A stretch of DNA of 64,000 nt from Rhizophagus irregularis. Its lineage: Eukaryota. A program made the position numbers and the translations under genes. Positions 18,364-47,308 of the stretch are shown in pieces. Within the stretch, counting starts at the first letter, position 1; the number at the start of each line of letters is the position of its first letter. The stretch covers positions 3,534,001-3,598,000 of the forward strand of contig NC_089431.1 of the NCBI RefSeq assembly GCF_026210795.1, in the 5' to 3' direction. Under the pieces are notes generated by a model. That model saw only the letters and a program-made list of their open reading frames with translations. It was not told where the DNA came from and ran no database searches.

Positions 18364-18365
18364 TT

Positions 18366-27770: not shown

Positions 27771-28186
27771 CTTCTAGATATTAGCCATTCTCTTTTCTTT
27801 TTTTAATAGGAATAGATTAATGGTTTTTTGAGAATAGGTAAATAAGATTTTGAGTAAGAAAACATGGATGTTAGAGAAATGAAAATTTATAATAAGAGGA
27901 ACGAAAAAAAATTTAATGTAAAATCTGATATTGAATAATATAAAAATTGTGTAATAAATAAAATCAACTTAAAAATTGAGATTATTGTCAGGTGATATGT
28001 GTGATGCAAATCATTGATAATCTTTACAAAGACACGACATTTTTTTATTACAGTTTTTTTTTATGGAAAACACGTTTTATCGCGTTAACAGATTGAAAAC
28101 ACATGTTTTATCTCGTTACAGTCTGAAGACACATGCTTTATATCGTTACAGCTTGAAAACACATGTTTGTAGCTATATGTTTTGTC

Positions 28187-30055
28187 ATGGAATATACGTT
28201 TATCAGCAGAGATACATTTAATGGAATTATTGAACGTTACATTGGCAACCTCCCTACGTCAAAGCAAGAAAAAGCTTTGATAAATCTTAATTTTTTAAAT
28301 AAAATTAAAGAAGTATTGTTAGACCCTAAAAATAATACTATTTCTAATAAAAATACACGTAGTTGGATTAAGAAAAAGTTTAAGCTTGAGGAAATAACAC
28401 CTGGTGACTATAGGGTAATTGTTGCAGCAAACAACAACCCAGTGTTGGCTGTAGAAAATATGTACGAAGTTTTATATCGAACTCATGCAGAAATTACACA
28501 GCATGGTGGGCAAAGACAGACATGGAAGTCTATTATAGAAAGGTGGGGTTGGATTAAACAAGATATTGTAGAACAATTTGTTAATAATTGTACAATATGT
28601 GCAGTACGAAAACCATCATTTCACCCTTTAGCAGCAAAGCCTATCATTGCAAGGAATTTTCTATCTCGTGTGCAAGTAAATATTTAATTTATTTTATATT
28701 CTTTTTTTTATTATTATTATATTTAATTTATTTTTTATTTTTTTTTAGATGGATCTTATTGATTTATCATTTGACGCAGATGGCGAATATAAATATATTT
28801 GCCATGTAAGAGATCACTTTACAAGATTCTCTTGGGCCAGAGCTCTTACTTCAAAAAGAGCTATTGAAGTAGCAGCATATCTTTTTGAACTTTTCCATTT
28901 TTTAGGCTCTCCTCCAACTATTTTACAGTCTGACAATGGGAAAGAGTTTTGTGCGGGAGTAATAAAGGAATTAATTGAAATGTGGCCTACAGTAATGATT
29001 ATAAATGGTCGTCCATGACATCCGCAGTCTCAGGGCCTAGTTGAACGTGCTAATGGAATTTTACAACAAAAGCTTGGTAAGTGGCGAGAGAATACTGGCC
29101 GAACTGATTGGTCTTTTGGTCTTAAATTTGTTATTTCAGCTATGAACAATTCATGGTGTCGGTCCCATAAAAAAACACCATATGAACTCGTATATGGTGA
29201 TAAACCACGTGGAAATTGTACTTTAATTGATGAATTATTTGCAAAAAATATCTATAATGAAGAGGATATACCTGATACTATACAAATATATGATAGTATT
29301 GAAGATTTGGATAGTGATATAATAGATGATTTGCAAGGTAAGGTTTTTAATACTAAAAAAATTATTAATTTCAATAATATTTATTAAATTTAATAAAATG
29401 TTTTTTTTAATCTAATTGCCAAATTTTATTATTTATCATACTAATACAATTAGAATCAAATATTCCAGTTCAACAATTAGATATTGAAAGAGCAGTGGTC
29501 CAAGATCAAGATAATGAAAATAATAGACATATAGTACTTATTGATCCAGTCCTTTTAGATATTACAAATAATACACAGCACGAAGTATTAAGAAATATGG
29601 CTCGTCAAGACCTTCAAGATTATACAAATAAGATGGCCAATCAAATGAGCAAGGGAAGAAAAAGAATTAAAGAATATCAGATTGGTGATCTGGTAAGGGT
29701 TGCTGTTCCTAAAATTGATAGATTTAGTGTTGATCGACCCACTTTGCCATGTAAAATTATGGAAAAAACTGAAAATAATAAATATAGTTTGGGATCAAAA
29801 TTTGGAATAATTGGAGTGTATTATTCTGCTAGTGAATTAGAACCACTTGGAACAGAAACTTTTCCTGAATTAGAAGTCATTCCCTTAAACAAAATATCAA
29901 TTAGAGAGGCTGCACGTCTTCAGAGTGCGGGTTTAGTATCAGGGGGTATATGTAATTGTAAAGGTGAATGCAATAGTAATAAATGTCGCTGTAAGAAGGC
30001 AGGTGGAGACTGTAGCAGTAGATGCCATAGTGGACGTTCATGTCAAAATAAATGA
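28187..30055 (+). pseudogene. Ginger-like / KRBA2-SCAND3-like integrase-transposase with a premature stop
   Basis: HAEITQHGG...CTIC (HHCC), QMDLID, QSDNGKEF, GRP*HPQSQGLVERAN (TGA at 29016-29018), C-terminal CNCKGECNSNKCRCKK...CSSRCH; two introns. Confidence 0.88.
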
Positions 30056-31717
30056 TGCGGCATTTGTTATATGTAAAAATATATTAATTAGTCAAAAAAA
30101 TGCATTATTACTGATGTCTTATATGAAAAAATAATAAAGAATTTGAATTTAAGTAATTTCATGTATGCTTAAATCATTGATTTTATTTGTTAATAGATTA
30201 TACACAATTTTATATTATTCAATATCAGATTTTACATTAAATTTTTTTTCGTTCCTCTTATTATAAATTTTCATTTCTCTAACATCCATGTTTTCTTACT
30301 CAAAATCTTATTTACCTATTCTCAAAAAACCATTAATCTATTCCTATTAAAAAAAGAAAAGAGAATGGCTAATATCTAGAAGAAAACACCAACATTATAG
30401 ATACCATAACACCACCTATTTACCGGGAGAGAGTCCAAATCGAAATGCTAAAAAAAAAGACAAAAGAACGGTCAGTACCGTTCTACTTTACAAATACGCC
30501 GATTATTTAAACATATGAGAAAGAAAATAACACCACAGATACCATAGCACCAAATATTTACCGGGAGAAAGTCCAGACCGAAATGCTAAAAAAAAAAGAA
30601 AAAAGAACGGTCAGTACCGTTCTAGGAGAAAGAAACTAACACCATAGACACCATAGCACCAAATATTTACCGGGAGAGAGACCAGACCGAAATGCTAAAA
30701 AAAAAAGAAAAAAGAACGGTCAGTACCATTCTAGGAGAAGGAAACTAACACCATAGACACCATAGCACCAAGTATTTACCGGGAGAAAGTCCAGGCTGAA
30801 CTGCTAAAAAAAAAAAGAAAAAAGAACGGTCAGTACCGTTCTAGGAGAAAGAAACTAACACTATAGTAAACATTATAGCATACCTATTTACCGGGAGAGA
30901 GCCCAGGCCGAAATGCTAAAAAAAAAGAAAAAAAAACGGTTAGTACCGTTCAAAAAAGAAAAAATAAAATAAAAATTGAATTCTACCTTAAAACATTTTA
31001 ACCGTTCCTATTAAAAAAAGAAAAAGAAATGGGTTAAATACGGCTCCTAAAAAGAAAAAAACAAAAAAAACCTACTTAAAATGTTTAACAAAAAAAAGAA
31101 AAGGTAGGAATGGTTAGTACCGTTCCGAAAAAGAAAAAAACAAAAAAAAAAATAAAATAAAAGCTTCCGAACTTACCTCAAAGAGCCAATTAGCCGTAAA
31201 GAACCGTTCTTATTAAAAACTTTATAATAATTAAAGTAATTTTTAGTGTAGTTACTAATGAGTTAAACTAACACTATTTCAGATTAATAAAATAGTAAAA
31301 AATAGTAGAAAACGATCAATATTTTTTTTAAAAAAAAATTTTTTATTTGCCTCAGATTAAAACTGAGGCACCTCAGATTATCAATGATCCACATCACGCA
31401 CCTCACATGACGATTTCAATCTGAGGTGCGTGAGTTGCGATCTGAGGCAAGAATCGATCTGAGGCACAACATATATAATGGAATATTCCTTAATTTAGAA
31501 ATTTACCATGATTTTAAAATTTTTTCCGTACAAAAAAAATTTTTTTCCATGATTTTTTACTAAAAAAAAAAATTCCCCTAATTCCATGATTTTTAATTTT
31601 TTTTACCTCCTTAAAAAAAAAAAATAAAAAAATAAAATGGATTTTATTTCAAGTCTCTCACCTTTCTCGCGTCTCTCACCTTCTTCGTATCTCACACCTC
31701 GCTTCTAATTCTAAAAA

Positions 31718-32682: not shown

Positions 32683-32728
<46 letters not shown>
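31718..32728 (+). pseudogene. CACTA accessory gene, 5' part (poly-N, SFG repeats, T/A-rich, poly-Q), interrupted by the Polinton-like element
   Basis: ATG 31718, (AAT)n, GT-AG introns; exon 3 ends ...SYWPLQQQQ at the insertion point. Confidence 0.65.
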
Positions 32729-33187
32729 GTCGTCGGGCTGGATGTGGGCCTCGCTACCGCTCCACCCACCTCGGCCTCGCGGCCTCGCAGTACCTATATC
32801 CCCCCTACGGGGCACAGGAATCCCCATATATCCGCCACAATCTGGGACAACATATGGAACAAATATATATACCAAATAACTAGAAAACAATAGAAAAGGA
32901 AGGAATAACGGATATAATGAGAGGGTTGTCCCGGATGTGGCAGATGTGGCAGATGTTTCAGAAAAAATATGAGAGGACATCCCCCCAGAAAAAGTTTTAT
33001 TTTTACCCCCCCAGATCCGCCACATCCGGAACATCTGGAACAAGTCAGGATTCCGTCTAATAATCTATTGGAAGCAGTGAGACAGCAAACCAGGTAAATT
33101 AGTAGGTAAGCCCCTAGAAGGTCTATAGAGCCAGTAAGACCAACCCCGTTCTGCCCCCGTCAGAAAAAATAAGTAATTGAACAATGG
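32729..33187. repeat. Left TIR of the Polinton-like element
   Basis: GTCGTCGGGCTGGATG...GAACAATGG; reverse complement of 46808-47266 with ~3 mismatches seen. Confidence 0.93.
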
Positions 33188-33230
33188 ATATTGAGAATAG
33201 AGCATATCCAGATAAGTTTAGAAGACAGTA

Positions 33231-33551
33231 CTAATCTGTTTTCCTCTTTTTTGCCTCCTTAAGGCATTTATCAATACACTGTTTACACACGTCATCAGAA
33301 TCTAAGATTTTCTGTCCAAGTTTTTTGCATTGCCGATTGTAAGCCGTCTGCTGTCTTTTAGCAGCGGTTTCTTTCTTTTTCTCCTTAGTCTTCTTCTTGA
33401 TCACCCAGTCTATTCCAGTAAAAGTATTCTTATGCATACCACAAATTGTGCAGTCACCATGCAGCCGGTAACGCCCATTTGTAGTCATATCTTGTATTTC
33501 ACTAGCCGTCTCAGTTTCCTTCTTGCACTTTAGGCAGTAAAAACGTGTCAT
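33231..33551 (-). CDS. Small zinc-ribbon protein (DUF5679-like) with basic tail
   Basis: FYCLKCKKETET...TTNGRYRLHGDCTICGMHKNTF; K-rich C-terminus with CxxCxxxC. Confidence 0.7.
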   Translation of the reverse strand: MTRFYCLKCKKETETASEIQDMTTNGRYRLHGDCTICGMHKNTFTGIDWVIKKKTKEKKKETAAKRQQTAYNRQCKKLGQKILDSDDVCKQCIDKCLKEAKKRKTD

Positions 33552-33595
33552 TTTAAGATTTGAAGTCTAAAACCATTCCTTTAATTTGTTGTAAT

Positions 33596-34687
33596 ATGTC
33601 ACACTTAGAGAATTACTATAAGTACTACAATCTCTCCGGAGTACCAGCACGAATTCTAAAAGGTGAAGAGCACTACAACCTATACAAAAAGCCCCTAAAG
33701 GAAAAGTCAACAGAACGCCCAAAGGTAATTGTATGGAAACCAAATGCAATACATCAGGCAGATCTTGCAGAGATGCCAGTTGACCCCAAAGGATTCCACT
33801 ATTTTCTCGTAGTGGTGGAAGTTGCAGGAAAGAGAGTTGATGCAGAACCCCTAAAGGATAAGACTGCAAATAGAGTTCTAAACGGGTTTGTCAAAATCTA
33901 CAGAAGAAATCGTATTAAGCCACCAACACACAGACTGGAGACAGACTCCGGATCAGAATTCACTAACGACCAGGTACGTGATTTTTTCCTGAACAGCCTA
34001 GGGGTAATGATGAGGTTCGGAGAGCCAGGAAGGCATAAACAGCAATCTTATGCTGAAAGAGCTATCCAAGCCATCCAAGAACCCCTTCTTAAACGAATGG
34101 TAGCACAGGAGTTGAAAACCGGGGTGACATCCGTGGAATGGTCAGAAGATTTCCATAATATAGTGAGTAAAGTAAATGAACTCTGGCAGAGAAATCCCCC
34201 AGACATTCCGACAGGATCACCCAAAGTGTCAAAAAAGACGGATCTCCTCTCTGAAGGAGCACGTGTCAGAGTCAAGTTAGATGAACCTATCTCAGTACTC
34301 GGTAATAAACTTCACGGAAAATTCCGTACAGGAGACATAAGATGGAACCCAAACATTCGTGTAATCAAAAAAATGATACTCTCACCCGAACAGCCTCCTA
34401 CATATCTCCTTAATGGACCACATGGTCGATTAGGTGTATCCAGATGTGCATATACCCGAAAGGAATTGCAAGTAGTTCCTATTAATGAAAAGCCTCCACC
34501 TGACTCTGTGATAAGAGGACAACCTGAAAGATTTGTTCCTGAGCAGATACTTCGGCATCGCATTAGAAAAGGTCAAGACCAGTATTTGGTTAAGTGGGAG
34601 CGCTATCCAGACACTGAGGCTACTTGGGAACCTGCTGACCGTTTGAAGGAGGATGTCCCTGACTTAATTCGCAAATTTTGGGAATAA
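33596..34687 (+). CDS. Polinton-type retroviral-like integrase with C-terminal chromodomain
   Basis: DDE: HQADL, ETDSGSEF, AERAIQAI; chromodomain FVPEQILRHR...YLVKWERYPDTEATWEP. Confidence 0.92.
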   Translation: MSHLENYYKYYNLSGVPARILKGEEHYNLYKKPLKEKSTERPKVIVWKPNAIHQADLAEMPVDPKGFHYFLVVVEVAGKRVDAEPLKDKTANRVLNGFVKIYRRNRIKPPTHRLETDSGSEFTNDQVRDFFLNSLGVMMRFGEPGRHKQQSYAERAIQAIQEPLLKRMVAQELKTGVTSVEWSEDFHNIVSKVNELWQRNPPDIPTGSPKVSKKTDLLSEGARVRVKLDEPISVLGNKLHGKFRTGDIRWNPNIRVIKKMILSPEQPPTYLLNGPHGRLGVSRCAYTRKELQVVPINEKPPPDSVIRGQPERFVPEQILRHRIRKGQDQYLVKWERYPDTEATWEPADRLKEDVPDLIRKFWE

Positions 34688-34711
34688 AAAAAATAGAAGA
34701 ATTAAAGGGTC

Positions 34712-35458
34712 TTATTTTTTATCCCCTCGATTAGCATCAGGAACTATCGGGATAAAAACATTCTTCCCATCACAGGTAAAGGCTATATGTTCACGTGATT
34801 CATGGACATCATAATTGTAACGTTTCAGACACGTTCGGCTTAACCCAATTTCCCTATGCTTGTAACCACTTAAGACTGCAAGGTCCTCAGTGATAGCATA
34901 ATCAGGGGTAAGTTTGATTGTCACTCCCTTTACCATGCCGAATGTCCTACCTGTTCCTGAAGCACCAGATATGTTATATGTAATACTCTTGTCAATATCC
35001 AACCCTAATTCCTCAGCAGCTTCTCTCTGAATAAAAGACGCATTAGCACAAGTGTCTGCTAAACACTGAATTGCTATTCCATTAACCTCCCCATCCAGTG
35101 CTAAAAGATCTTTAGTATTCTCTAAACGAGCTATGTCAATATCCATAGGATCATCTACCCTGATATCCTCTTCTTGTTCCTCCTCAACTAGGTCCTCCGG
35201 AATCTCTGTGACTTTTCTAGCAGACAATAACTCCTCCTGAAGAATCTCACGGAGTAATTTCCTAAAGTCTGCAGACCTTAACAGGCTTAATAAATCATTC
35301 TTAGTAACAGCTTTTGCAGGTGTAAACTTACTACCAGTAACTTTCACAGGAATCTTAACAGGGGTTGCTTTGCCTTTCAATGGCACACTAGAAGAGTTAA
35401 CTGCTGTCTTATTTGGGGACGACTTAAGAAGTTTTGAGATACTCGAACCTACTTTTTT
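34712..35458 (-). CDS. Retropepsin-like aspartic protease, probably expressed by -1 frameshift from Gag
   Basis: GEVNGIAIQCLADTCANASFIQREAAEELGL, ISGASG flap-like segment. The frame is open from the A-run at the Gag stop; no ATG near the 5' end. Confidence 0.78.
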   Translation of the reverse strand, partial: KKVGSSISKLLKSSPNKTAVNSSSVPLKGKATPVKIPVKVTGSKFTPAKAVTKNDLLSLLRSADFRKLLREILQEELLSARKVTEIPEDLVEEEQEEDIRVDDPMDIDIARLENTKDLLALDGEVNGIAIQCLADTCANASFIQREAAEELGLDIDKSITYNISGASGTGRTFGMVKGVTIKLTPDYAITEDLAVLSGYKHREIGLSRTCLKRYNYDVHESREHIAFTCDGKNVFIPIVPDANRGDKK

Positions 35459-36879
35459 TTTGACCCAACACGAACCATATAGACATCACCATCTTTTTCT
35501 CTCAATTCTACCTTTTCACCAAAACTCGCAGTATCAATGTCCATAGCATCATCATTAAGATCGAGGTTTCTCATTGCTTGGGCCAAATCCAGATCATCAC
35601 GTCTATCTTTAGCCTTCTGAAGTTGTTTTGTAAGTATTTTAGACGTCCCACGTTTATATCCCATAATAAGATCAATAGCATTTTGATGATCATCCAAAGT
35701 CCACTCAGGAGCATCAGGGTCATCACCAACATCATGATCTACATAACCATCATCCCAATCAGGATCCTGAGGATCCTGAACAACACGTCTCTGTGGTTTT
35801 GGTCGAACAGGTTTAATCTGCTGTCTATAGACTGGTGGATTACGAACTGGCCGAGCCTGTAATTGTTTAAATTGCACCTGAAAATTCTTGGTAAGTTCCT
35901 CAGCTTGAGCCTTAAGTAACTCTTGTAATTGTTCTTGAGTAACCCCAGATGACTTTGATGTCAGTACTACAGGTTCCTGTTTTCCTAACGGAGGTTGAGT
36001 TACATCACTGTAATCTGCTTGAAGTCGTCGATTTCTATCTTGTAACCCCAAGCGCATTTCAGCCCTTCTCCGTTCTAAATTTCTCAGATGTTTAACCAAG
36101 TCATCAGGATTAAGATTACTAAACCTTTCTGCTTCAAAAATATTATCAGCCGAAAGACCTCTAAAGAACTGGTCGATAATAAGATCATCAGTTAGTTTTA
36201 GTAATTTTCCAGCTCTCTTTACAGTTCTATAAAATGCATCGACTGGCTCATTTTCCTGATAAAGACTGTTAAAACGGATACGTTTCTTTTCATCTAAAAT
36301 AGTTGGAAATTGTGTTCTAAGCCAATAAAGCGCCTGGTTAGGTTTAATACCTGGAAAAACTATAGAACGATTATTATTAGCAGCAACACCAGCATCTGCA
36401 GTAGCTGGAGCAGCTCTATCTGTCGGACGAGCACCAGCTCTTCCCCAAGCTTTATCTCCACCTATTAAATCATGGGTAGGAATAAATGCTGCTCTAATAG
36501 TTACTAATGCATTAGCTGCATCTGTAGCATGAACATGTGCTTCAGACCCATTTACATAGGTACCTGCATTTGGTCCTCCTGCACCTTCTGGTATTACTAA
36601 TGCTACAAAAGCAGCTAAATTAGCTCCACCTCTTGAAGTAATACCAGAAAGTTCCCAATTTTTTCCTGTAATTTCTCGATCAAACCATTCAGCCGCTTCA
36701 CCAGCCATGCAGCTTCTAAGTATACCCATAGCTCTTTTCCAAGACTCTGGTGGTCCTCCAGCAGCATATGGGTTAAGATTAATAGTATCAAGATAACCCA
36801 TGTAAAGCCTAACAAATGTATCAACATCATCAGTAGCTTTACCCTCAAAAATCGGCAATCCTATCGCAGTGGTAGCCAT
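35449..36879 (-). CDS. Retrotransposon-type Gag capsid protein
   Basis: LPIFEGKATDDVDTF...MAGEAAEWF...GKNWE and FNSLYQENEPVDAFY...QFFRGL align by eye with the Ty3 Gag in this window (IEPFSGKEDEDPIEW...LRGAASDWY...GNHWE; LTLRQGSNETVNDY...MFLFGL). Confidence 0.82.
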   Translation of the reverse strand: MATTAIGLPIFEGKATDDVDTFVRLYMGYLDTINLNPYAAGGPPESWKRAMGILRSCMAGEAAEWFDREITGKNWELSGITSRGGANLAAFVALVIPEGAGGPNAGTYVNGSEAHVHATDAANALVTIRAAFIPTHDLIGGDKAWGRAGARPTDRAAPATADAGVAANNNRSIVFPGIKPNQALYWLRTQFPTILDEKKRIRFNSLYQENEPVDAFYRTVKRAGKLLKLTDDLIIDQFFRGLSADNIFEAERFSNLNPDDLVKHLRNLERRRAEMRLGLQDRNRRLQADYSDVTQPPLGKQEPVVLTSKSSGVTQEQLQELLKAQAEELTKNFQVQFKQLQARPVRNPPVYRQQIKPVRPKPQRRVVQDPQDPDWDDGYVDHDVGDDPDAPEWTLDDHQNAIDLIMGYKRGTSKILTKQLQKAKDRRDDLDLAQAMRNLDLNDDAMDIDTASFGEKVELREKDGDVYMVRVGSKKK

Positions 36880-37658
36880 ATCGTCTCTAGTGGATTGTTT
36901 AAAAGAGGTGGAGGAGGGTTCAATTGTCTAATTCGAAACCATTGTACCTGAATTCTAAGAGCAGCTATCTGTTGGAAAAGTCTATTTCTAAGTCTCCCTA
37001 ATGTCTGAATCCCAAAACGCACCCTATTATTAGCATGTGCTAGCTGTGCATTAACCTGTCCAAGTTGCGCATTAACCAATACAAGTTGTCCTCCAGTCTG
37101 AGTAGCCCTCAGCCGCCAATGATTTAAAAGGATATTACCACGATTCACAGCATTTTGAGCCTCATTACGATCCCTTACTGCTTGAGTATAATCTGCTTGT
37201 AATACATTACGTTCATGTCGTGCCTGATTACGTTCACCTATAGCCCGTCGACGAAGCTCTACCATAGTATCATAATCTCTTTGCAGGTTATGGTTTTCTT
37301 CTATGAAATTATCATTGGCAGCACGTATAATAACTAATTGACGTTCTAAATTAGTAAACGTTTCATCAAATGCATTTATCTTACCTTGTGCAAAAACTAA
37401 CAAATCTTTTGTAATACCAAGTTCTTCATGTTTTGCTTTACAGCGATACATTAATATATTAATAATATGTTTGATTTGATTATTTGCCTCCTGTATCTCT
37501 GAATCAACAGTTAAACGACCCCTGGTAGTCAATAAATTTGCATGAGCCTTAAGTATTCTAACTAATTCATCATCGTCTTTTTCATTGACCAAGTGTGCAG
37601 GAGGCGGTCCAGTAGGTTCTGAAGGAGTATAAACTGGAATTGGTGTTGATGTCGACAT
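36861..37658 (-). CDS. Coiled-coil protein overlapping the Gag start
   Basis: 265-aa ATG ORF with heptad-like ERNQARHERNVLQADY; 19-bp overlap with gag. Confidence 0.75.
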   Translation of the reverse strand: MSTSTPIPVYTPSEPTGPPPAHLVNEKDDDELVRILKAHANLLTTRGRLTVDSEIQEANNQIKHIINILMYRCKAKHEELGITKDLLVFAQGKINAFDETFTNLERQLVIIRAANDNFIEENHNLQRDYDTMVELRRRAIGERNQARHERNVLQADYTQAVRDRNEAQNAVNRGNILLNHWRLRATQTGGQLVLVNAQLGQVNAQLAHANNRVRFGIQTLGRLRNRLFQQIAALRIQVQWFRIRQLNPPPPLLNNPLETIWLPLR

Positions 37659-37689
37659 AGTATTTAAACTAAGTTAGAATAAAATTCAA

Positions 37690-38913
37690 ATGGATCTTTA
37701 TGTATACAATTTGGACGAGTACACGACTGACTCAAGACAAGGCAATGAGTTTGCTCCATCATGGCCCTTTCGATTAGCCGTAGCAGGTAGCTCAGACTCA
37801 GGTAAGACAACTATGATCATTAATTTGTTAATGGGTAACAAGAAAGCAAAGGAGGATGGTAATCGGTATGTACTATGTGATGCGGTACTTTTAGTTGGCA
37901 GATATCTTGACGAGCCGAAGTGGGCAGTTGTACATGATTTTTTCGAAGAGGAGAAGATCCCATTCACTGCAGTAACCCATAGTGAGATTCCAGAGATTGA
38001 CTCCTTCAACCCTACTCAAGCTACTGTGGTAATCTTTGAGGATCTGATGGATGCACCTAAAAAAATCCAGGATCTCATCACTGGTTACTTTACACATGGA
38101 CGACACAAAAATATTTCATGTATTTATGTAGCCCAAAGATTCTTTGCCATTCCTAAGGCTATTCAAGAAAATGTTAACTACATCTCACTGCATGGAGGTC
38201 ATGGAAGCCTTACAGATACCAAGAGAATCATCCGCCTATATACAGAAGAATCAGAGTCATTAGCACCAGTAATTGATGATCTTACTCTGCAACGTGAATT
38301 TGTAGTGTTTGATCTTAGACGGTCCAAAAGTGATCCACTGTCCATTCGAGTAAGATGGGATACTAGTCTCAGTTCGATTACAGAGCAATCTCAGTTCAAT
38401 CCTAGTTTGATCTCAGTTCAATCTCAGTTTGATCCAAGTTTGAACCCAGTTCGATCTCAGTCTGAACCCAGTTCAATCACAGTTCGATCCAAGTTTAGTC
38501 CCTATGGTCAGAAAGCTGTATTTGAAGCAAAAAAAGGTGGACACTTGATTGAATTTGCTCGGGTATTTCCATCCCCTAAAGAACGTCAACATTTACTTGT
38601 ACCTGGTGTCTTAGCCAAGAATGCAGATACCTGGATTAAATATGTCTTTCGGGAAGCTTATGGACTCTCTGGTAAGACCTTAGGAGCTGACTTTCAGGAT
38701 TTCTTAGCAAAAGTACAGGGTAGGACTGCAAAGACTGAAACTCTGAAAACTGAGAATGTGAAGGAGTTATTCTCCCGATATGAAGCCCTGAAGTCTAGTC
38801 GCCCTCTGGATAATAAACAAATAATAGAAGGTATTGAAGTCCTTCTACAGATCTTTTCTAAGAGCCACATGGACCGTCGAGCATTACAAGTAGGGATTAA
38901 TAGTATCTTGTGA
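37690..38913 (+). CDS. A32-like (FtsK/HerA superfamily) DNA packaging ATPase
   Basis: Walker A GSSDSGKT, Walker B VVIFEDL, GRHKNISCIYVAQ...IPKAIQEN as in poxvirus A32/Polinton ATPases; C-terminal extension. Confidence 0.88.
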   Translation: MDLYVYNLDEYTTDSRQGNEFAPSWPFRLAVAGSSDSGKTTMIINLLMGNKKAKEDGNRYVLCDAVLLVGRYLDEPKWAVVHDFFEEEKIPFTAVTHSEIPEIDSFNPTQATVVIFEDLMDAPKKIQDLITGYFTHGRHKNISCIYVAQRFFAIPKAIQENVNYISLHGGHGSLTDTKRIIRLYTEESESLAPVIDDLTLQREFVVFDLRRSKSDPLSIRVRWDTSLSSITEQSQFNPSLISVQSQFDPSLNPVRSQSEPSSITVRSKFSPYGQKAVFEAKKGGHLIEFARVFPSPKERQHLLVPGVLAKNADTWIKYVFREAYGLSGKTLGADFQDFLAKVQGRTAKTETLKTENVKELFSRYEALKSSRPLDNKQIIEGIEVLLQIFSKSHMDRRALQVGINSIL

Positions 38914-39457
38914 GAATATCAAGTAATTCGTCTGCAGAAGCTCTAAGAATCATAGCACTTTTTTTACGGCCTTCAAAGTCAATCCTTAACATCTTAGCCT
39001 TCAACCCTATTGCTCCTAAAGCACGAGAAGCAAAGTTCTTAGTCATTGGATTACTTATATGATTTACATAGTTCTCATAAAATGTAGTGAAAGGCTCGTC
39101 AATACCATCTGGATATGTATCCCTTAGAAATTGATATAAAGCAATTTCTCCACTGTCATAACCTATGGCTATAAGCTGTTCGAGAAGCCACTTCCTAATA
39201 TCTTCATATGGCTCTCCATCCATAATATTCATATCCAGTTTTTGTGTAAACAATTGTGTAAAGTCCACATTACTTCCCCGACGAATGATCTGAACTAACT
39301 TATCCCTAGCAAGTCCCAAGGCTTGTAGAGGGTCATTCTCATCACTAATCTTCTTTATAATCTGTCTGTATAATACACTGGATAATCCTCTATATGCTGT
39401 TTTTGGAGTGATTACTCCACAGTTTTGGCACTGGTTTATTACGATTGATGTTGACAT
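38897..39457 (-). CDS. Hypothetical protein of the Polinton-like element
   Basis: 186-aa ATG ORF, N-terminal CQNC, tight gene packing. Confidence 0.7.
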   Translation of the reverse strand: MSTSIVINQCQNCGVITPKTAYRGLSSVLYRQIIKKISDENDPLQALGLARDKLVQIIRRGSNVDFTQLFTQKLDMNIMDGEPYEDIRKWLLEQLIAIGYDSGEIALYQFLRDTYPDGIDEPFTTFYENYVNHISNPMTKNFASRALGAIGLKAKMLRIDFEGRKKSAMILRASADELLDILTRYY

Positions 39458-39502
39458 GGCTATCTTTCTTTATGTAAAAAAGAATTATTCAAAATTAAGT
39501 AA

Positions 39503-40084
39503 CTATTCGGAGCAGTCCTTGCACAACTTGTCCGTTAAGTCACTTGGGCTTACAGGCATGAGACATTCCCTACACAACTCAATATTAAGCTCTGCAAGTC
39601 TCGGGGTATGGTCCTCCAAAGTTCGTGGACGACTGGAAGGACCGGAGGAAGGTGTTCCGTTAGTCATATCTTGCTGTAAGATAAAATCATCATATTCATC
39701 TTGGTCAGCCTGAATAGCAGTCCTGATTTGTTGTATATCATTGAAAGTTAACCGCTGCCCATCAAGATTTTCCTCATTATAGCGTGTTTCATTGATGATT
39801 TCCTCTATAAGCGCCTCTTCTTCATAATGGACAAGGTAGTAATTCTCAACTACCTCATAGTCACTCTCAATCAGTCTATGATATGTTCTAGTACCACGTC
39901 GAACATAACGTCCTGTATCTGTATTTAAATATACAGGTTGCTCTTCAGGTGGAGGTGCAGTTTGTCTACGGACAAGCCTTCCATCAATATAATCATGGGA
40001 TTCCATAACTATTCGATTAAAGGTATCTCCACCGATAATAATTGGACGTCCAGTTATAGGGTTAGCTATATAAGGGTAAGACAT
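39503..40084 (-). CDS. Protein with two NPxTGR-like repeats and a C-terminal zinc ribbon
   Basis: YIANPITGRPIIIGGDTFNRI and YLNTDTGRYVRRGTRTYHRL; CRECL...CKDC. Likely start MSYPY. Confidence 0.65.
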   Translation of the reverse strand: MSYPYIANPITGRPIIIGGDTFNRIVMESHDYIDGRLVRRQTAPPPEEQPVYLNTDTGRYVRRGTRTYHRLIESDYEVVENYYLVHYEEEALIEEIINETRYNEENLDGQRLTFNDIQQIRTAIQADQDEYDDFILQQDMTNGTPSSGPSSRPRTLEDHTPRLAELNIELCRECLMPVSPSDLTDKLCKDCSE

Positions 40085-40146
40085 GTCTTTTTTTCTGTAC
40101 GTGTCTACATACCTAATAGTTTTCTTCAATTTATAATAACCAAGTG

Positions 40147-40300
40147 ACATGGTCATCAGTCCTTATCAAAAAATACAAGAATACCTGATGATAAGGTTAC
40201 ATGGTCATCAGTCCTTATCAAAAATGCAAGGATACCTGATGATAAGGTTACATGGTCATCAATCCTTGTCGAAAAAATGCAAGGATACCTGATAAATAAG
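40147..40300. repeat. Three ~52-bp tandem units, each an imperfect hairpin
   Basis: ACATGGTCATCAGTCCTT...AAGGATACCTGATGA at 40147, 40199 and 40250. Confidence 0.85.
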
Positions 40301-40632
40301 TTACTGGGTTATTGGCCTAGAATGCATTCATGGAAAAACTATGGATTATATTACAGAAAATGTGAACGGAGTTCATGTCACGTGATACCCTGAACAAATG
40401 TGTAGAGTGTCACGTGATTTCATGCGGTACGTAGATCATTTCCTTTTTGGGCGATACCCGTTCCACAAAAAATCGATTTGGTAAGAATGCGTTTGGAACC
40501 CTGTGTAACATAAATTTCTTTTTTCGGTAATTCGGGATTACGCGGTAATGCCGGCCGGATCTAAAAAATATGACTCTGCAGGGTAATTCCTACGAAAGTC
40601 AAGTACAAAATGCTTACTCCTGTTGAGTCCAA

Positions 40633-41019
40633 TCATTCCAATCTCCAAGGATCGCCTCCCCATCTATGTTCACTTAATGCATGCTCTATGGTTTCCCTTT
40701 CCTGGGGGTTCACAACCATCCCATTCCTAAGCATTTTCTCCATAATATAAAGCTGATCCTCGGTGAGGCGGTCTATCCATCTTTTATAGAAGTCATTTAC
40801 ATCTTCAAATGATATCCAGTCAATATTCCCTTTTTCAAACGGCTTTCCAAGAGCTTGGACATGACCAATTGTAATAGCGTAATTTTTCCATCTCTTATAT
40901 GCTTCTTGACGAACCTCCTGCCACCACACACTATCTACTTTACTCGCTGCAATAAGGTCAGTATCTGGGATCTTTGCAACAATGCGTTCGACTATTTCTA
41001 CTGGTAATCGGTCCAACAT
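40633..41019 (-). CDS. F-box-like protein
   Basis: N-terminal LDRLPVEIVERIVAKIPDTDLIAASKVDSVW fits the F-box pattern. Confidence 0.7.
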   Translation of the reverse strand: MLDRLPVEIVERIVAKIPDTDLIAASKVDSVWWQEVRQEAYKRWKNYAITIGHVQALGKPFEKGNIDWISFEDVNDFYKRWIDRLTEDQLYIMEKMLRNGMVVNPQERETIEHALSEHRWGGDPWRLE

Positions 41020-41112
41020 GATGTTATGTTACTTATACTATAGCCATCTTCAATTACTGTATGCCCATTACAAATGGATAAAAAATATAAACTAAATTCG
41101 TACAGGAGCCGC

Positions 41113-41583
41113 TTATGCAAGAAGTTCTGCTAAGGTTTTCTCAGCCTCATTCATAGTGACAGCTCGCTTTGGGGGACCTGTTAATGAGTCCTTAGTTACA
41201 TTATAATACAACTCGAAGAGGGCCTCAAGTTTGTCTAAAAGAGCTTGTTTATTCTTGTATGATTCACGAATCTTTGCTATCTTAGCAGTATATGCTGCAT
41301 TATCTGGGAAGAGTTTTCTGGCCACGAACTTTACATATGATACAGGAGACTTTGCTGTCTGGATTCTCTTGATATACTTCACATGATCCTGGACAAGGTA
41401 GCTGGTTTTGCTAAACCCAGATACTAATGCGACTACTATAGTGTCTTTCAATGCACGGATAATCTTGAGGACAGTTTCATCAGAGACAATGGTAAACTGA
41501 TTGTGTGATGCATCATAAATAACTTTATCACTAATGCTGTCAGTGCTGTTAATAATGCTTGCTAATTCGGTATATGTTGACAT
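41113..41583 (-). CDS. Hypothetical protein of the Polinton-like element
   Basis: 156-aa ATG ORF with the shared upstream TTGAA motif. Confidence 0.7.
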   Translation of the reverse strand: MSTYTELASIINSTDSISDKVIYDASHNQFTIVSDETVLKIIRALKDTIVVALVSGFSKTSYLVQDHVKYIKRIQTAKSPVSYVKFVARKLFPDNAAYTAKIAKIRESYKNKQALLDKLEALFELYYNVTKDSLTGPPKRAVTMNEAEKTLAELLA

Positions 41584-41696
41584 GATTCCTTATACTTTTT
41601 TGTACTTTGTAATAAATAGGAATCTTCAAATTGACTTTACATTCAAGCAAGAAAAAATATATATACCTACTGTAAATCCAACCGCATTCTTGGCAA

Positions 41697-43576
41697 TCAT
41701 GTCCAGATAACCTTGTTTGCATTTTTCACATGGCAGTATCCTGCGGTTTCAAACTTGAGAGCTTTCAATGCTTTGGATGCATTTTCTGGACAAGTGATAA
41801 GTGTAGGACTACTCGGCTGTTCCTCTAGAATAAATCCATCTGTATGGATGCGTCGTACTTTATCCTTATATGGTTCTAATAACTCTGAAGTCGTCTTCCG
41901 TCCATGTGCTAATAAGAATGGAGCGATCCTAGGATACTCACCCTTGAAGGGACTACCTGGGTTTGTGAACTGGAATCGCCACTGGTCAGATCCTACTGGT
42001 ACGATGGAGTCAAGTGTGTGGCCTTCTGGAAACTTGAATGGATCTGTTTGATCTGTGGTGAGTGTCTTGTAATTGCGTTTCCTCTGGCAGAGTGCTCCCC
42101 ATAGTGTATTGAGAACTCTCTTTGCAACACGACCGGCCACGCCACCCTGGTTCTTTATATTGAAGAGAAAGTGGACATACTCACCAAATATTACAGTCCC
42201 AGGAATTCTTGCTTCTCTGTCATATATCAAGGCATTTGGCTTTCCATCCTGGATTAACTGTATATCGAGTCCAAGTTTCTTTGCTCGTTGTAAGTCAATG
42301 AATGTATAGACTCCCCTCTTATTCTGTCGGAAGAGAATGTCATTACCACTTACCTTGCCCTTGGGCGCTCCTGGGAGCTAGCACGAAATAATCCATACAA
42401 GGCATAACCTCTATGGTCTACAAAGTCTTTGAGTATTTGAAACTTACCTTGTCGGATTGGAAAGTTTGCATTTGATTGCTGAATACTTGGATACAAACTT
42501 GTCACGTCGTATTGCCTTCCATAGCCCTTCCATTCGTTGTCTGCCCAGATAAGACCTCCCATCATTGCATCACTTATCCACTCTGCTTCGACTGGGTCAA
42601 GAGGATCATTGGCTGGAACCCCTACACTAAACCGTTCAAAAAGCCAGAGTGCAGTTCTCTTGTACGACCAGTTGTGGTAAGATAAGTCGATTCCTAGACC
42701 GAACTTCTTTGTAGCCTGTAGGAAGGAATCCCGCTCTTCATGGATCCTCTGGTATGTTTCCTCAAGTGTTTCATATATTCCAGTTTTACAATTCTTCTCG
42801 ATAGGGATGAAGGAGTAACTATCAGAGTTCTTACCTTTCTGAAACTGTCCAACTGTAAGAGACTTAACTGTCTTACCATTGTATATTGTTACTACATTAT
42901 TAACCCCATCTTCACGATAAACAAAGGGAGACTTTTGTTTTCTATCTAATTTGCTAGGGTGGAGTCTTCCGGGATTCAGTGCAAGAGAGTAGTGGCCTTC
43001 AGACAGGATAAGTGTTGCACGTCTGTCAGATTTGCTCTTAGAAATTCGAGTGGAATCCCCTACAATATTAAGTGCAAGGCTTCCTGCAAGTTGTTCAACC
43101 TTATCCATATATGAGACTGGAACTGAAGCATCACGATTGAGACCTAATGCCTTTTTGATATACTCGGGCTTTTCGATTGACTTTGGCATTTTAGAGAATG
43201 TGCCGTAGATATATTTCAGGCATTTATACAGGCAATCATTTAGCTTCCCATTGCACCCCCCTGCAACCGGTGGGGCATCTCTCACATAAATTATGAATCA
43301 TTCAAAATAATCAGGGTCTGCATCATCCGGTAGTTGTGCTTCGTCGTAGTGGTCCAAGAGTGAGAAGAGGCTGGCTGGTTGGTTTCCTGATGTCCATCCA
43401 CCGGGTTTCCAGTTTTCATAGGGGAGCAGAATCTGAAATTTATGTGTCGGATACCGGGATTGGAGTCGCTGTCCAAGTCTTGCTATTGCTCCTCTGGAAA
43501 ATCTTGCGCCTGAATACTGTAATTCTTTGATATCCGGTCTTGTAGGTAAAGCACGGACAATCTCTGAATAAACCAT
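41697..43576 (-). pseudogene. Family B DNA polymerase (protein-primed/Polinton type), disrupted
   Basis: Motif A YDVTSLYP preceded by GG, motif B AKRVLNTLWG, motif C IHTDG. In-frame TGA at 43298-43300 and a frameshift at ~42350-42380. Confidence 0.85.
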
Positions 43577-43767
43577 TTGACGTATTTATGAATTGTGTTC
43601 AGTTGTAATATAGGTTTTTTATACAAAAAATATAAGATAACTAAGAAGTGCTTATCTTATTAAAAGGAGTCAATCTTGCTGCATACACGATCAAGATCCT
43701 CTTCATCCCAGTCGTCGATGAGTCCATTGGCGGCTTCCCATTCACGTTCCATATCGGTTTTTGGACG

Positions 43768-46194
43768 TTACTCGGGGATCTCTCGTGCTTTACCCTTATT
43801 CATCTTCATAGTTTCATAACCGGAGGTGGTAGGGATAATCTCGGCATCATGATCCTCCTTATATGCTCTTATTAGATCTGTGAGTTCTTTACGGCTAGGT
43901 GTTTTAGGTAAGTACCCATTATATTCTATCCAGTCCTTGAAGCGGTCTACTACCTCCCTAAGGTAGTACTGGTACTCGTCCTCAATACGTGTTGTGGGAC
44001 ATTCCTCTACTTCAAACGCGAGTATTTCCCAGTCATAGTCGTCTGACACGTCTTGATACTTAGCCCATAAATCCTTACCTGTATTGTAGAGATCATTGAA
44101 GACCTGGTTCTTTGAATTCTTGACCCATGGCTTACGATCCCATCGGTGCCTTTCATGCCAAGCCCAGTATGCTCGAGTACCTTCCTTTGGTTTAGGGTCC
44201 CAGTCAACTTCTAGTTCTGTGTCGGGTTCTGGGATAGGTTGCTCTTCAGGAGCTGGTTCTGGGTCAGGCTTAGTGACAGATGCAGAAAATTCTGCGGGAG
44301 ACTCGGGTTGTTGTTCAGAAGCTGGGTTTACAGTTGTAAAATCTGAGTCAGATAGCAAGTCATCTAAAACGTCGTAGTCATCATCAGCTTTAAATGCAGG
44401 TTCCTCAGCAGGCGGCTCATTTTCTTGATCAGGTTCCTCATCAGATAGATAACAGTCCGAGAAGCTATCTATAGGTTCATCAGTATCTGATTCTATAGGA
44501 GCTGGAGATTCCTCAGGAATAGGATCCTCATTGATGACAGGTGCGGGTTTTACCTTCAAGCAATCGGGCTTAAGTGGTACTGGTGGTGGAGTCTTTTTGG
44601 TCTCTTCAGTAGGCTTCTTCTTGACAGGAGCGGGTTTTTCCTCAGCAGGTTTCTCTTGTACGTCTTGTGGATTATTAGCAGGAATGCTATATATATTTGC
44701 CAAGAACTTTTCTAAGGCTTTGGGATCAGATGCGGGCTTCTCGGGAGTTTCTACATCTATTCCTTCTATATTGATTTCATCTGTTTCATGGATCCATTTT
44801 TTGGTGAGAAACTTTTTGTAAAGGTCCTCCCTAGATATGCTGTAAACTCGTGGTGTTGTCTTACCTACACGTATTTTTCTGCTATTTATACCCAACTCAT
44901 TTGATAGGATTCTAGAAGCGTTTATCTTTGATAGGGGTGTAATGCAATGAGTTTCACAGTATGAAGTATATACCCTATAAAATTCTTGAACAGGTAGGTC
45001 GGTTATATGATTTTTTACTATGAGGTAAATGTCCTTTATGAATTGAAATAGGGGTGGGAGAGTTGATATGATGTGATCCTGCTTAGATGTCGTCATAGGT
45101 GGTGGATTCCCATTGAAGTCTGGGTAAGCGTCTGCAATGGCTCTCAAGTAAGCATAGAATGCCTCACTGGCACCTGGGTATTTCATAGCGTCACTGAGTT
45201 TCTTAAAGTAGTTGAGGTCTCCCTTGCGGGATGGTGACACATCCAAGAACACTGTGCGCCTATCGTCATTCTCCACTCTGAGAGCATTTTCATTAGTGAG
45301 TACAATGGTGGATATAAAGTTTTTGTAATGTGTTGGCGTCTTGTATTTTTCATGGATTTCCATTATGTCACCTGTTACCTTATCCTTCAATGATCGATAC
45401 AGATTATTCCACTGGCTTTTTTCTGTAGGCATTTCCTCGAGGAGGAGAAGAACCTTACCTTGTAATTGCCCATTGAAACTTCCAAGAATCGTTTGAGGAT
45501 CACTGGTCTTATAAACAAGTTGAGTACCTAAAACACTACGTTGAATGAAATCTGTTATAATACTCTTACCCCAACCCTGTCCAGATTTCAGGTAGAGAAT
45601 CGAATACATTTTCCTTCCGGCTGCCACACCGGCCAACCACTTTATGATATACTCAGTAAGATTCCAATCGCCTGAACACCAGATATCCTGAATGTGGGAG
45701 AAGATAAATTTAACCGCGAGGTGGGTTGTAGATTCAAAAGTGGATATCGGACGCAGGATATGGAGGAATCCTGGAAAGATATTGAGATAAAGTTGGCCAC
45801 CTAGTTCAAAGATACGGGATTTTTGAGGGTCACAGGTAGCTACACATACAGTACTATATTCGATCATAAACCATTTGTTGATATTAAATTCAACCTTTTG
45901 TGAAGGACCCTGTTCAGATTGTGTGTAAAAGACTTTGGTAATTGGACGGATAAGTTTATTAATATTTTTATCAGGGATGTGCTCGAGGTTTTTGATTTCT
46001 GATCGCCACATGAAGACTCCATGTGGGTTGGAGCAGGGGATAAAGTAACTGCAAAGATAACCTTTAGCTTGATTGAGATCCCTCATATTCTTTGCAGCGT
46101 TAATGAGCCGTTTAAGCTCATCAATACTAAAAGCCTTCTTCTGTTCACCGAACTTGGGGATAACTTGAGCTTGAGTGCTAGTTTGGGCAGTCAT
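43768..46194 (-). CDS. SF3/D5-like (DUF5906-type) helicase with long acidic/proline-rich C-terminal region
   Basis: YLNIFPGF, YIIKWLA, Walker A SGQGWGKS, FNGQLQGKVLLLLEEM (Walker B), VLTNENAL...DDRR. The frame continues ~36 codons past the TAA. Confidence 0.85.
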   Translation of the reverse strand: MTAQTSTQAQVIPKFGEQKKAFSIDELKRLINAAKNMRDLNQAKGYLCSYFIPCSNPHGVFMWRSEIKNLEHIPDKNINKLIRPITKVFYTQSEQGPSQKVEFNINKWFMIEYSTVCVATCDPQKSRIFELGGQLYLNIFPGFLHILRPISTFESTTHLAVKFIFSHIQDIWCSGDWNLTEYIIKWLAGVAAGRKMYSILYLKSGQGWGKSIITDFIQRSVLGTQLVYKTSDPQTILGSFNGQLQGKVLLLLEEMPTEKSQWNNLYRSLKDKVTGDIMEIHEKYKTPTHYKNFISTIVLTNENALRVENDDRRTVFLDVSPSRKGDLNYFKKLSDAMKYPGASEAFYAYLRAIADAYPDFNGNPPPMTTSKQDHIISTLPPLFQFIKDIYLIVKNHITDLPVQEFYRVYTSYCETHCITPLSKINASRILSNELGINSRKIRVGKTTPRVYSISREDLYKKFLTKKWIHETDEINIEGIDVETPEKPASDPKALEKFLANIYSIPANNPQDVQEKPAEEKPAPVKKKPTEETKKTPPPVPLKPDCLKVKPAPVINEDPIPEESPAPIESDTDEPIDSFSDCYLSDEEPDQENEPPAEEPAFKADDDYDVLDDLLSDSDFTTVNPASEQQPESPAEFSASVTKPDPEPAPEEQPIPEPDTELEVDWDPKPKEGTRAYWAWHERHRWDRKPWVKNSKNQVFNDLYNTGKDLWAKYQDVSDDYDWEILAFEVEECPTTRIEDEYQYYLREVVDRFKDWIEYNGYLPKTPSRKELTDLIRAYKEDHDAEIIPTTSGYETMKMNKGKAREIPE

Positions 46195-46414
46195 TTTTTG
46201 TTCTATCAAATCGAGTACTAATTTATAGTTACCTAATCTTCAATTGCCGAATATTTTTCCAAAGATCTGCACTCCTACCAATTTACCCTCCTGTAGTCCT
46301 ATGGTCCTGCGATTCTGCGGTCCTCCGGTTATATCTGGTTATCTTCTAGGGGTAAAAAAAAAAACTATAAACCACGAACCTTTACGACTGCTCTAAATCT
46401 TCCCTTCCCCTTTT

Positions 46415-46774
46415 TCAAACTACATATATCTGAAATCCAAACCGCTCAAGAGCTCCTTTTACTATAGTTAGCTTTTTTCTAGTGTCCGTTAACTCTTTAC
46501 AAGCCTTTTGATACGCCTTCCATTCAAGTTCACGGAGGGTACCCTCCTCCTCCAATGATTGGCCAAGAGCATCGTTTGCTTTTTCCTTCTTTTCTACTGC
46601 CCTGTCGTATGCCTCCTCGGCTTTTTTATGCCGCTTCCAGAGTACTCGTTCAGCTTCGGCTTTCCAGATTGGGCTGACTTCTAAAAGATGTGGCCCGAAA
46701 TTGCTACTTGGAATGTGTTCCAGGATATGGCCTACAAGTTCAGGAATTACTAATACTGCGTGCGGGGTATACAT
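46415..46774 (-). CDS. F-box-like protein with coiled-coil tail
   Basis: IPELVGHILEHIP...LLEVSPIWKAEAERVLW. Confidence 0.6.
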   Translation of the reverse strand: MYTPHAVLVIPELVGHILEHIPSSNFGPHLLEVSPIWKAEAERVLWKRHKKAEEAYDRAVEKKEKANDALGQSLEEEGTLRELEWKAYQKACKELTDTRKKLTIVKGALERFGFQIYVV

Positions 46775-46807
46775 GTTATCTGTCCTTATAGGTTACTTAT
46801 GGTATAC

Positions 46808-47266
46808 CCATTGTTCAATTACTTATTTTTTCTGACGGGGGCAGAACGGGGTTGGTCTTACTGGCTCTATAGACCTTCTAGGGGCTTACCTACTAATTTA
46901 CCTGGTTTGCTGTCTCACTGCTTCCAATAGATTATTAGACGGAATCCTGACTTGTTCCAGATGTTCCGGATGTGGCGGATCTGGGGTGGTAAAAATAAAA
47001 CTTTTTCTGGGGGGATGTCCTCTCATATTTTTTCTGAAACATCTGCCACATCTGCCACATCCGGGACAACCCTCTCATTATATCCGTTATTCCTTCCTTT
47101 TCTATTGTTTTCTAGTTATTTGGTATATATATTTGTTCCATATGTTGTCCCAGATTGTGGCGGATATATGGGGATTCCTGTGCCCCATAGGGGGGATATA
47201 GGTACTGCGAGGCCGCGAGGCCGAGGTGGGTGGAGCGGTAGCGAGGCCCACATCCAGCCTGACGAC
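46808..47266. repeat. Right TIR of the Polinton-like element
   Basis: CCATTGTTC...CAGCCTGACGAC; reverse complement of 32729-33187. Confidence 0.93.

Positions 47267-47308
<42 letters not shown>

What the first reader, a model, noticed from the sequence alone, without database searches (positions are those of the whole stretch)
32729..47266. Polinton-like DNA element with a retrotransposon Gag capsid and aspartic protease in place of the jelly-roll capsid module
Seen: one element bounded by 459-bp TIRs and a TSD encodes a chromodomain integrase, an A32-like packaging ATPase, PolB and an SF3-type helicase. Between integrase and ATPase sit a Gag and a retropepsin. There is no RT, RNase H, LTR or PBS near the Gag, and the cassette abuts both neighbours with only 24-31 bp gaps, so it does not look like a nested retrotransposon. 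Established: canonical Polintons pair the A32 ATPase with double- and single-jelly-roll capsid proteins and an adenoviral-type cysteine protease; I recognise none of these among the ORFs. Inference: the morphogenetic module has been swapped, giving a chimeric dsDNA element that may package DNA in a Gag shell. I do not know of a description of this arrangement but cannot search the literature.
Basis: partly seen in the sequence, partly recalled or inferred. Interest (0 to 1): 0.95.

Follow-up and report, generated by a model that had tools for sequence, protein, structure and literature searches.

The report
DNA-virus element with retroviral capsid
A mobile DNA element, likely from the root-symbiont fungus Rhizophagus irregularis, carries the copying, integrating and DNA-pumping genes of virophage-type DNA viruses next to a protein predicted to fold as a retrovirus-type shell and its protease, keeps this gene order in distant relatives, and likely packs its own DNA in that shell, which would make it a hybrid of two unrelated virus worlds.

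Summary
Confirmed and extended. The 14.5-kb element has 463-bp TIRs and sits in a host matching Rhizophagus irregularis. Its Gag model matches only retroviral/retrotransposon CA in the top 38 VIA rows. A retropepsin follows in the -1 frame behind an A-run kept in 7 of 8 related loci. The order A32 / coiled-coil / Gag recurs in 10 of 10 long-enough metagenome loci at 40-63% Gag identity or closer. One sister family has its own TIRs and the full order. Gag, protease and A32 are mostly under purifying selection. No RT was found and no ORF is large enough for a jelly-roll capsid. New here: the replication module is mavirus-type (TP-vOTU-palm pPolB, separate SF3 helicase, chromodomain integrase); IMG/VR relatives of it carry virophage capsids. 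This copy's PolB is broken; intact ones exist. Particles, expression and DNA packaging are untested. Prior art: the Fig. 5 legend of Starrett 2021 labels an unnamed element with Gag, retropepsin and S3H (figure not seen), and Bellas 2021 lists the Glomus Polinton capsid as missing.

The parts
32724..32728 (.). left copy of probable 5-bp target-site duplication (in a microsatellite)
   Evidence: sequence
32729..33191 (.). left TIR, 463 bp
33231..33551 (-). DUF5679 small Cys-rich protein, also in sister family
33596..34687 (+). rve (DDE) integrase with C-terminal chromodomain; 34-40% identical to integrases of five IMG/VR viruses
34712..35458 (-). retropepsin ORF in the -1 frame of Gag (protease domain 34712-35146, catalytic Asp in D-T-C)
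35452..35461 (-). A-run slippery site directly before the Gag stop; inferred -1 frameshift
35449..36879 (-). Gag, 476 aa: predicted two-lobed CA (residues 1-277, 36049-36879) with an insertion of about 100 aa between the N-lobe helices and the C-lobe; no CCHC knuckle
36861..37658 (-). coiled-coil ORF, 265 aa, overlapping the Gag ATG by 19 nt; fused in frame to Gag in some distant relatives
37690..38913 (+). A32-type packaging ATPase with intact Walker A/B motifs and a conserved C-terminal extension
38897..39457 (-). conserved 186-aa ORF; C-terminus weakly resembles the D5 C-terminal domain
39503..40156 (-). 217-aa ORF with weak 2-cysteine adaptor match; also in L009
40633..41019 (-). 128-aa F-box-like ORF (below cut-off)
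41113..41583 (-). 156-aa ORF, unassigned
41697..43576 (-). mavirus-type protein-primed PolB (TP-vOTU-palm), broken in this copy by one stop and one frameshift
43768..46194 (-). D5/SF3 helicase with acidic tail; 34% identical over 432 aa to the helicase of capsid-bearing virophage L020
46415..46774 (-). 119-aa ORF, unassigned
46804..47266 (.). right TIR, 463 bp
47267..47271 (.). right copy of probable 5-bp target-site duplication

Best explanation
This is one copy of a multi-copy, TIR-bounded DNA element family, likely of arbuscular mycorrhizal fungi, that joins a mavirus-type replication and integration module and an A32 ATPase to a Gag predicted to fold as a retroelement capsid and a retropepsin, and it likely packs its own linear DNA in the Gag shell. 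Shown: gene set, order, conservation, selection, and no room for RT or a jelly-roll capsid. Inferred steps: (1) the linear DNA is copied by the protein-primed PolB with the SF3 helicase; (2) coiled-coil protein and Gag are translated as a coupled pair, and a minority of ribosomes slip -1 at the A-run to make Gag-protease; (3) CA builds a closed shell that the protease matures, replacing the jelly-roll capsid and cysteine protease; (4) the A32 motor loads the 14.5-kb DNA, with the coiled-coil protein as a possible scaffold or adaptor; (5) the chromodomain integrase inserts it into another nucleus of the shared hyphal cytoplasm or of a fused hypha. This copy has a broken PolB and would need it in trans.
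For: CA fold: 38 top VIA rows are retro-type CA (best Z 9.9, rmsd 2.2, 77 aligned; first unrelated row Z 4.5), several spanning both lobes; 40 of 41 listed Foldseek rows are CA. Synteny: A32 upstream of Gag in 10 of 10 loci that reach far enough, protease after Gag in 6, integrase after protease in 3 of 3 long enough. A-run before the Gag stop in the window and 7 of 8 loci; 19-nt overlap in 14 of 14. Sister family has its own inverted ends, 659 bp at 96.7%. dN/dS at most 0.50 in 12 of 14 defined CA pairs; A32 0.08-0.17 in 6 informative pairs of 10. PolB model is closest to Mavirus pPolB, E 3e-44, TM 0.70, with OTU and phi29 matches. IMG/VR viruses with this PolB, helicase and integrase carry virophage major capsid proteins (2 of 5 by Pfam).
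Against: No particle, expression or frameshift measurement; the 'RNA' runs laid are guesses. No Foldseek hit reached E 0.001, the model is moderate (pLDDT 73, pTM 0.60), and Z under 13 is common for helical folds. No stable hairpin follows the A-run (-4.6 to -8.5 kcal/mol), and an internal ATG at 35146 could give a stand-alone protease. The protease motif is D-T-C or D-S-G with an altered third motif. I recall no portal or DNA motor on any CA shell, and such shells are thin and porous (recalled). Integrase and PolB linkage rests on only two element families. Two close CA pairs gave dN/dS 0.82 and 2.0 on few changes.
Confidence: 0.6

Rival explanations
1. Gag forms particles, but they co-assemble around the DNA-integrase complex or element RNA without motor-driven filling; A32 does another job such as resolving or moving the linear DNA.
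For: 6 of 18 relatives fetched keep a CCHC knuckle, the nucleic-acid-binding part of ordinary Gag; this Gag has a basic stretch after CA. Co-assembly is how retroelement shells load (recalled).
Against: The knuckle is absent in the lineages shown to sit beside A32. A32 has the lowest dN/dS of the four genes tested and sits beside the cassette in 10 of 10 loci. With no RT, packaged RNA is a dead end.
Confidence: 0.17
2. The element is a satellite that borrows a jelly-roll capsid from a helper virus using its own A32, and Gag-protease is a captured accessory, for example a decoy against LTR retrotransposons.
For: The backbone comes from virophage-like parasites. CA varies faster than A32 or integrase and is swapped between near-identical backbones (L002, L010, L013), as in an arms race.
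Against: A decoy would not need a conserved frameshifted protease or an invariant overlap with the coiled-coil gene. No capsid gene has been reported for the Glomus Polinton (PMC7805220).
Confidence: 0.14
3. A jelly-roll capsid is hidden in an unassigned ORF or in spliced pieces.
For: The small ORFs were not folded. Pfam missed the probable 439-aa capsid of L019, so profile negatives are weak.
Against: The largest unassigned ORFs are 265 aa (coiled coil), 217, 186, 156, 128 and 119 aa, against 439-589 aa for the capsid-sized ORFs in L019, L020, L022; the largest non-coding gap is about 480 bp. The sister family shows no large spare ORF.
Confidence: 0.05
4. The Gag-protease is the remnant of a one-off nested LTR retrotransposon.
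For: Retrotransposons do nest in mavirus-like elements (PMC8547959); this may be how the cassette was first gained.
Against: Same position and junctions across families at 40-63% Gag identity, purifying selection, and about 55 bp between protease and integrase in L003. No RT domain among listed homologues and no Gag-Pol-length relative (weak).
Confidence: 0.03

Closest known systems
Mavirus and endogenous mavirus-like elements (EMALEs)
   Same: TIRs, short TSD, chromodomain rve integrase, short TP-vOTU-palm pPolB (617 aa in intact R. irregularis copies and in Mavirus), separate SF3 helicase, packaging ATPase
   Different: No major capsid, penton or cysteine maturation protease found; Gag, retropepsin and a coiled coil lie beside the ATPase; the A32 is 27% identical to the Pox_A32-type ATPase of L021 and 19-20% to those of the virophage-capsid loci
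Maverick/Polinton elements, including the capsid-less Glomus intraradices Polinton
   Same: pPolB, rve integrase, A32, TIRs, TSD; Mavericks are reported as expanded in Glomerales (PMC11952901, PMC8647823)
   Different: Short pPolB of mavirus architecture plus SF3 helicase; retro-type structural module. I could not check whether this family is the original Glomus Polinton
Unnamed 'related element' in Fig. 5 of Starrett et al. 2021 (PMC8502044)
   Same: [quoted passage not shown]
   Different: Figure not visible, so host and gene order are unknown; section 3.4 does not discuss it. This copy has no NC knuckle and a mavirus-type PolB; L014 has the cassette with a different PolB
Ty3/Gypsy Gag-protease and its domesticated forms (PEG10, Arc, PNMA)
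   Same: Predicted CA fold, retropepsin behind an inferred -1 frameshift
   Different: No RT, RNase H or LTR; integrase on the opposite strand and of the virophage family; large insertion in CA
Other cross-lineage chimeras (bidnaviruses, EMALE02; cruciviruses recalled)
   Same: Replication and capsid modules from unrelated lineages
   Different: None that I know combines an A32 motor with a retroelement CA

Membership tests
Maverick/Polinton (transposon definition) | TIRs and TSD | tested here: met
   TSD in a microsatellite
Maverick/Polinton (transposon definition) | protein-primed PolB and rve integrase | tested here: met
   PolB broken in this copy, intact in relatives
Polintoviruses / virophages (virus definition) | double jelly-roll major capsid protein | tested here: not met
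   no unassigned ORF above 265 aa and no space for one; Pfam detects virophage capsids in L020 and L022 but none in 14 window ORFs
Polintoviruses / virophages (virus definition) | single jelly-roll penton | tested here: inconclusive
   small ORFs have no match but were not folded
Polintoviruses / virophages (virus definition) | Ulp1/adenain maturation protease | tested here: inconclusive
   no Pfam hit in the window; Pfam found it in 1 of 3 candidate ORFs of related viruses
Polintoviruses / virophages (virus definition) | A32/FtsK packaging ATPase | tested here: met
Mavirus-type replication module | TP-vOTU-palm pPolB with separate SF3 helicase and chromodomain integrase | tested here: met
LTR retrotransposons (Metaviridae) | Gag with CA fold and retropepsin | tested here: met
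   (predicted model)
LTR retrotransposons (Metaviridae) | reverse transcriptase, RNase H, LTRs | tested here: not met
   no space between protease and integrase
Any virus | particles that package the genome | not testable with these tools
   needs bench work

The most novel reading that the evidence does not exclude
A new kind of virus: a virophage-derived dsDNA genome, copied by protein priming, pumped by an A32 motor into a retrovirus-type CA shell matured by a frameshifted retropepsin, widespread in arbuscular mycorrhizal fungi and explaining the missing capsid of their Polintons.
Probability: 0.5. Interest if true: 0.96.

Novelty: new variant of a known kind. Interest (0 to 1): 0.87.

Why it matters
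It offers an answer to a stated puzzle, the missing capsid of the Glomus/Rhizophagus Polinton (PMC7805220). It points to a capsid swap between the jelly-roll DNA viruses and reverse-transcribing elements. If the A32 motor fills a CA shell, that is a virion design I found no description of, and it can be tested with four small genes. The family is multi-copy in the main mycorrhizal model fungus, where its genes are annotated as host 'hypothetical proteins'. A CA shell that carries 14 kb of DNA with an integrase would also interest vector designers.

Tried and rejected
No host genome was available, so copy number and insertion sites were not counted. L001 is an unrelated phage and was dropped. 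Viral-contig scans with single A32, PolB and the integrase alignment, and the prokaryote-genome scan, found nothing. The 'longer' search covered only 1564-4465 aa and is weak. Sequence searches of PDB gave at best E 0.015-0.5. PHROGs and NCBIfam gave nothing for the small ORFs. A T-TTA-AAC heptamer before the Gag ATG in the window is not kept in most relatives, where the Gag frame is closed 2-6 codons upstream, so a coiled-coil-to-Gag frameshift was rejected. Complex prediction and the protein atlas were not available, so Gag self-assembly and the small ORFs were not modelled. Earlier-findings look-ups returned nothing. PMC3671162 passages had nothing on fungi; the 2006 Polinton paper was not held.

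Full report
Observation. The element spans 32729-47266 between 463-bp inverted repeats that are 99% complementary. A 5-bp repeat flanks both ends, inside a microsatellite, so it is weak alone. Pfam names an rve integrase with chromodomain, a retropepsin, a Pox_A32 ATPase and a D5-type helicase; the Gag ORF has only a sub-threshold Retrotrans_gag match, E 0.029. Integrase and A32 are on the + strand; the cassette between them (coiled coil 265 aa, Gag 476 aa, protease) is on the - strand with gaps of 24 and 31 bp. PolB is in three pieces here, by a stop and a frameshift; intact 617-aa versions are on record for R. irregularis, and contigs of two runs lack the frameshift.

Host and spread. The Gag search gave 193 hits among 7995 candidates; most of the 120 listed are R. 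irregularis gene models, up to 98% identical, many ending in a retropepsin and none listing an RT domain within the 261-833 aa searched. A profile search without length limit found 330 proteins; the longest of the best 150 is 893 aa. Named distant members come from R. clarus, Entrophospora, Diversispora and Acaulospora (20 proteins looked up); their genomic context is unknown. Four runs covered 30 of 30 bins of the element with many variants, consistent with a multi-copy family; no contig spans it.

Gag is predicted to be a capsid. AlphaFold2 on residues 1-277 with 11 sequences gave pLDDT 73, pTM 0.60. Foldseek had no hit at E 0.001, but 40 of 41 listed rows are CA proteins, led by PEG10 at E 0.015. 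In the VIA search of 48,161 chains the top 38 rows are retroviral, retrotransposon or Arc-type CA (best Z 9.9, rmsd 2.2, 77 aligned); HIV-1 CA and dArc1 align across both lobes (163 and 156 residues, rmsd 8.0 and 6.3); the first unrelated row has Z 4.5. The Z values are modest for a helical fold; the uniform family is the evidence. About 100 inserted residues separate the N-lobe helices from the C-lobe. This Gag has no CCHC knuckle; 6 of 18 relatives fetched have one.

The cassette is conserved. A metagenome scan gave 16 loci from 164 pattern matches. A32 lies upstream in the opposite orientation in 10 of 10 loci that reach that far; the protease follows Gag in 6; the integrase follows in 3 of 3 long enough. 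These three and L004 are one family (95-99.8% DNA identity), which also shows helicase and an intact 624-aa PolB in the window's order and has its own inverted ends (L004 362-1019 against L015 3516-4173, 96.7%). So the full order rests on two families and the A32-coiled-coil-Gag order on about six. The window and 7 of 8 loci end Gag with an A-run and a stop, with the -1 frame open 234-245 codons where the contig allows; the eighth has an earlier stop. In the four loci of the sister family the -1 frame is closed just before the A-run. The Gag ATG overlaps the coiled-coil ORF by 19 nt in 14 of 14 cases. Against the frameshift: no stable downstream hairpin, and an internal ATG could yield a 144-aa protease. 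Nei-Gojobori dN/dS: CA 0.22-0.50 in 12 of 14 defined pairs of 16, with 0.82 and 2.0 in two close pairs with few changes; protease 0.14-0.52 in 13 of 15 (2 saturated); A32 0.08-0.17 in 6 of 10 (3 saturated, 1 near-identical); integrase 0.15-0.35 in 6 of 6. Many pairs have dS above 1, so values are rough.

The backbone is mavirus-type. The intact PolB of L004 (pLDDT 90) matches phi29 polymerase (Z 21.6) and, at residues about 107-205, OTU proteases; the Cys and His are invariant in 35 sequences. Its best viral match is Mavirus pPolB, E 3e-44, TM 0.70 over the whole length. Krupovic et al. (10.1101/2024.03.18.585575, passages) describe that polymerase as uniquely TP-vOTU-palm, with only an exonuclease remnant and a separate SF3 helicase. 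Five IMG/VR contigs with 28-31% identical PolB also have the helicase (34% over 432 aa for L020) and an integrase 34-40% identical to the window's. Two of them have Pfam-detectable virophage major capsid proteins; a third has a capsid-sized ORF that Pfam missed. These show the same module with the ordinary structural genes, so a swap of the structural module is the simplest reading; no tree was built, so direction is inferred. L014 has the cassette next to a C-terminal PolB fragment with no similarity to the L004 type, so the cassette likely rides on at least two polymerase types.

No jelly-roll was found. Unassigned ORFs are 265 aa (coiled coil, SMC-like match), 217, 186, 156, 128, 119 and 106 aa; the 186-aa one weakly resembles the D5 C-terminal domain. 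A major capsid does not fit. A small penton is not excluded because these ORFs were not folded.

Mechanism. I commit to motor-driven loading of the DNA into a protease-matured Gag shell (0.6). The reason is the joint retention of an intact, strongly selected A32 and a CA-protease pair in a genome with no other shell and no RT. By hand arithmetic, 14.5 kb occupies about 15,500 cubic nm; a T=9 retrotransposon shell of about 48 nm (diameter recalled; T=9 for Copia in PMC12724554, passages) would be about half full, whereas a small Arc-size shell would be too small. Nothing about particles, binding or expression was shown.

Literature. Ten searches of open PMC and bioRxiv text found one lead. Starrett et al. 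(PMC8502044: passages, section 3.4 whole, part of the supplement; preprint 10.1101/697771: passages) define in the Fig. [quoted passage not shown] I could not see the figure, the supplement was cut before any accession table, and section 3.4 does not discuss the element; Rhizophagus is named once elsewhere. It is likely a relative of this family. Bellas and Sommaruga (PMC7805220, passages) state that no capsid was found for the G. intraradices Polinton, and a 2026 preprint (10.64898/2026.06.19.733378, passages) reports only A32 genes from Glomus and Rhizophagus. PMC8647823 and PMC11952901 (passages) report Maverick expansion without gene content. PMC8547959 (passages) gives EMALE gene content and nested Ngaro elements. 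PMC11296320, PMC5751038, PMC4409740 and PMC3671162 (passages) add nothing on Gag. Subscription journals and RepBase were not searched.

Verdict. The feature is real, conserved and selected. At sequence level it is a new variant of Polinton/virophage-like elements, probably glimpsed once in a figure; if packaging is confirmed it would be a new kind of virion. Interest 0.87.

Noticed in passing
window 26680-31477: A second element with long, internally repeated inverted ends and integrase-like ORFs (28157-30055) ending in a Cys-rich tail; looks like a Ginger-type DNA transposon (name recalled).
   Followed up: partly
window 10313-10612 and 18365-18664: Identical direct repeat of at least 300 bp, 8052 bp apart; possible LTR element or duplication.
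   Followed up: no
window 404-2543: 108-nt (36-aa) repeat array, like Sel1 repeats (name recalled).
   Followed up: no
L002, L010, L013: Mosaic copies: L002 has Gag 93% but coiled coil 45% identical to the window; L010 and L013 have coiled coil 92-93% but Gag 45-49%. The CA region is exchanged between backbones.
   Followed up: partly
L014:1-904: Degraded C-terminal PolB of another type beside the same A32-Gag cassette.
   Followed up: partly
window 35146 and about 35550: A D-x-M-D-I-D motif occurs both near the Gag end and just before the protease domain, and in relatives; possible cleavage sites.
   Followed up: no
L018-L022: Five IMG/VR viruses share the mavirus-type replication module but appear to have different capsid modules (virophage-type in L020 and L022, another type in L019).
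   Followed up: partly
window 40633-41019, 46415-46774; L004, L016: Small F-box-like accessory ORFs vary between copies, possibly host-protein degradation adaptors (weak Pfam matches).
   Followed up: no
window 40144-40312: Short imperfect direct repeats (66 bp, 80%) in the largest non-coding gap, upstream of the 217-aa ORF.
   Followed up: no
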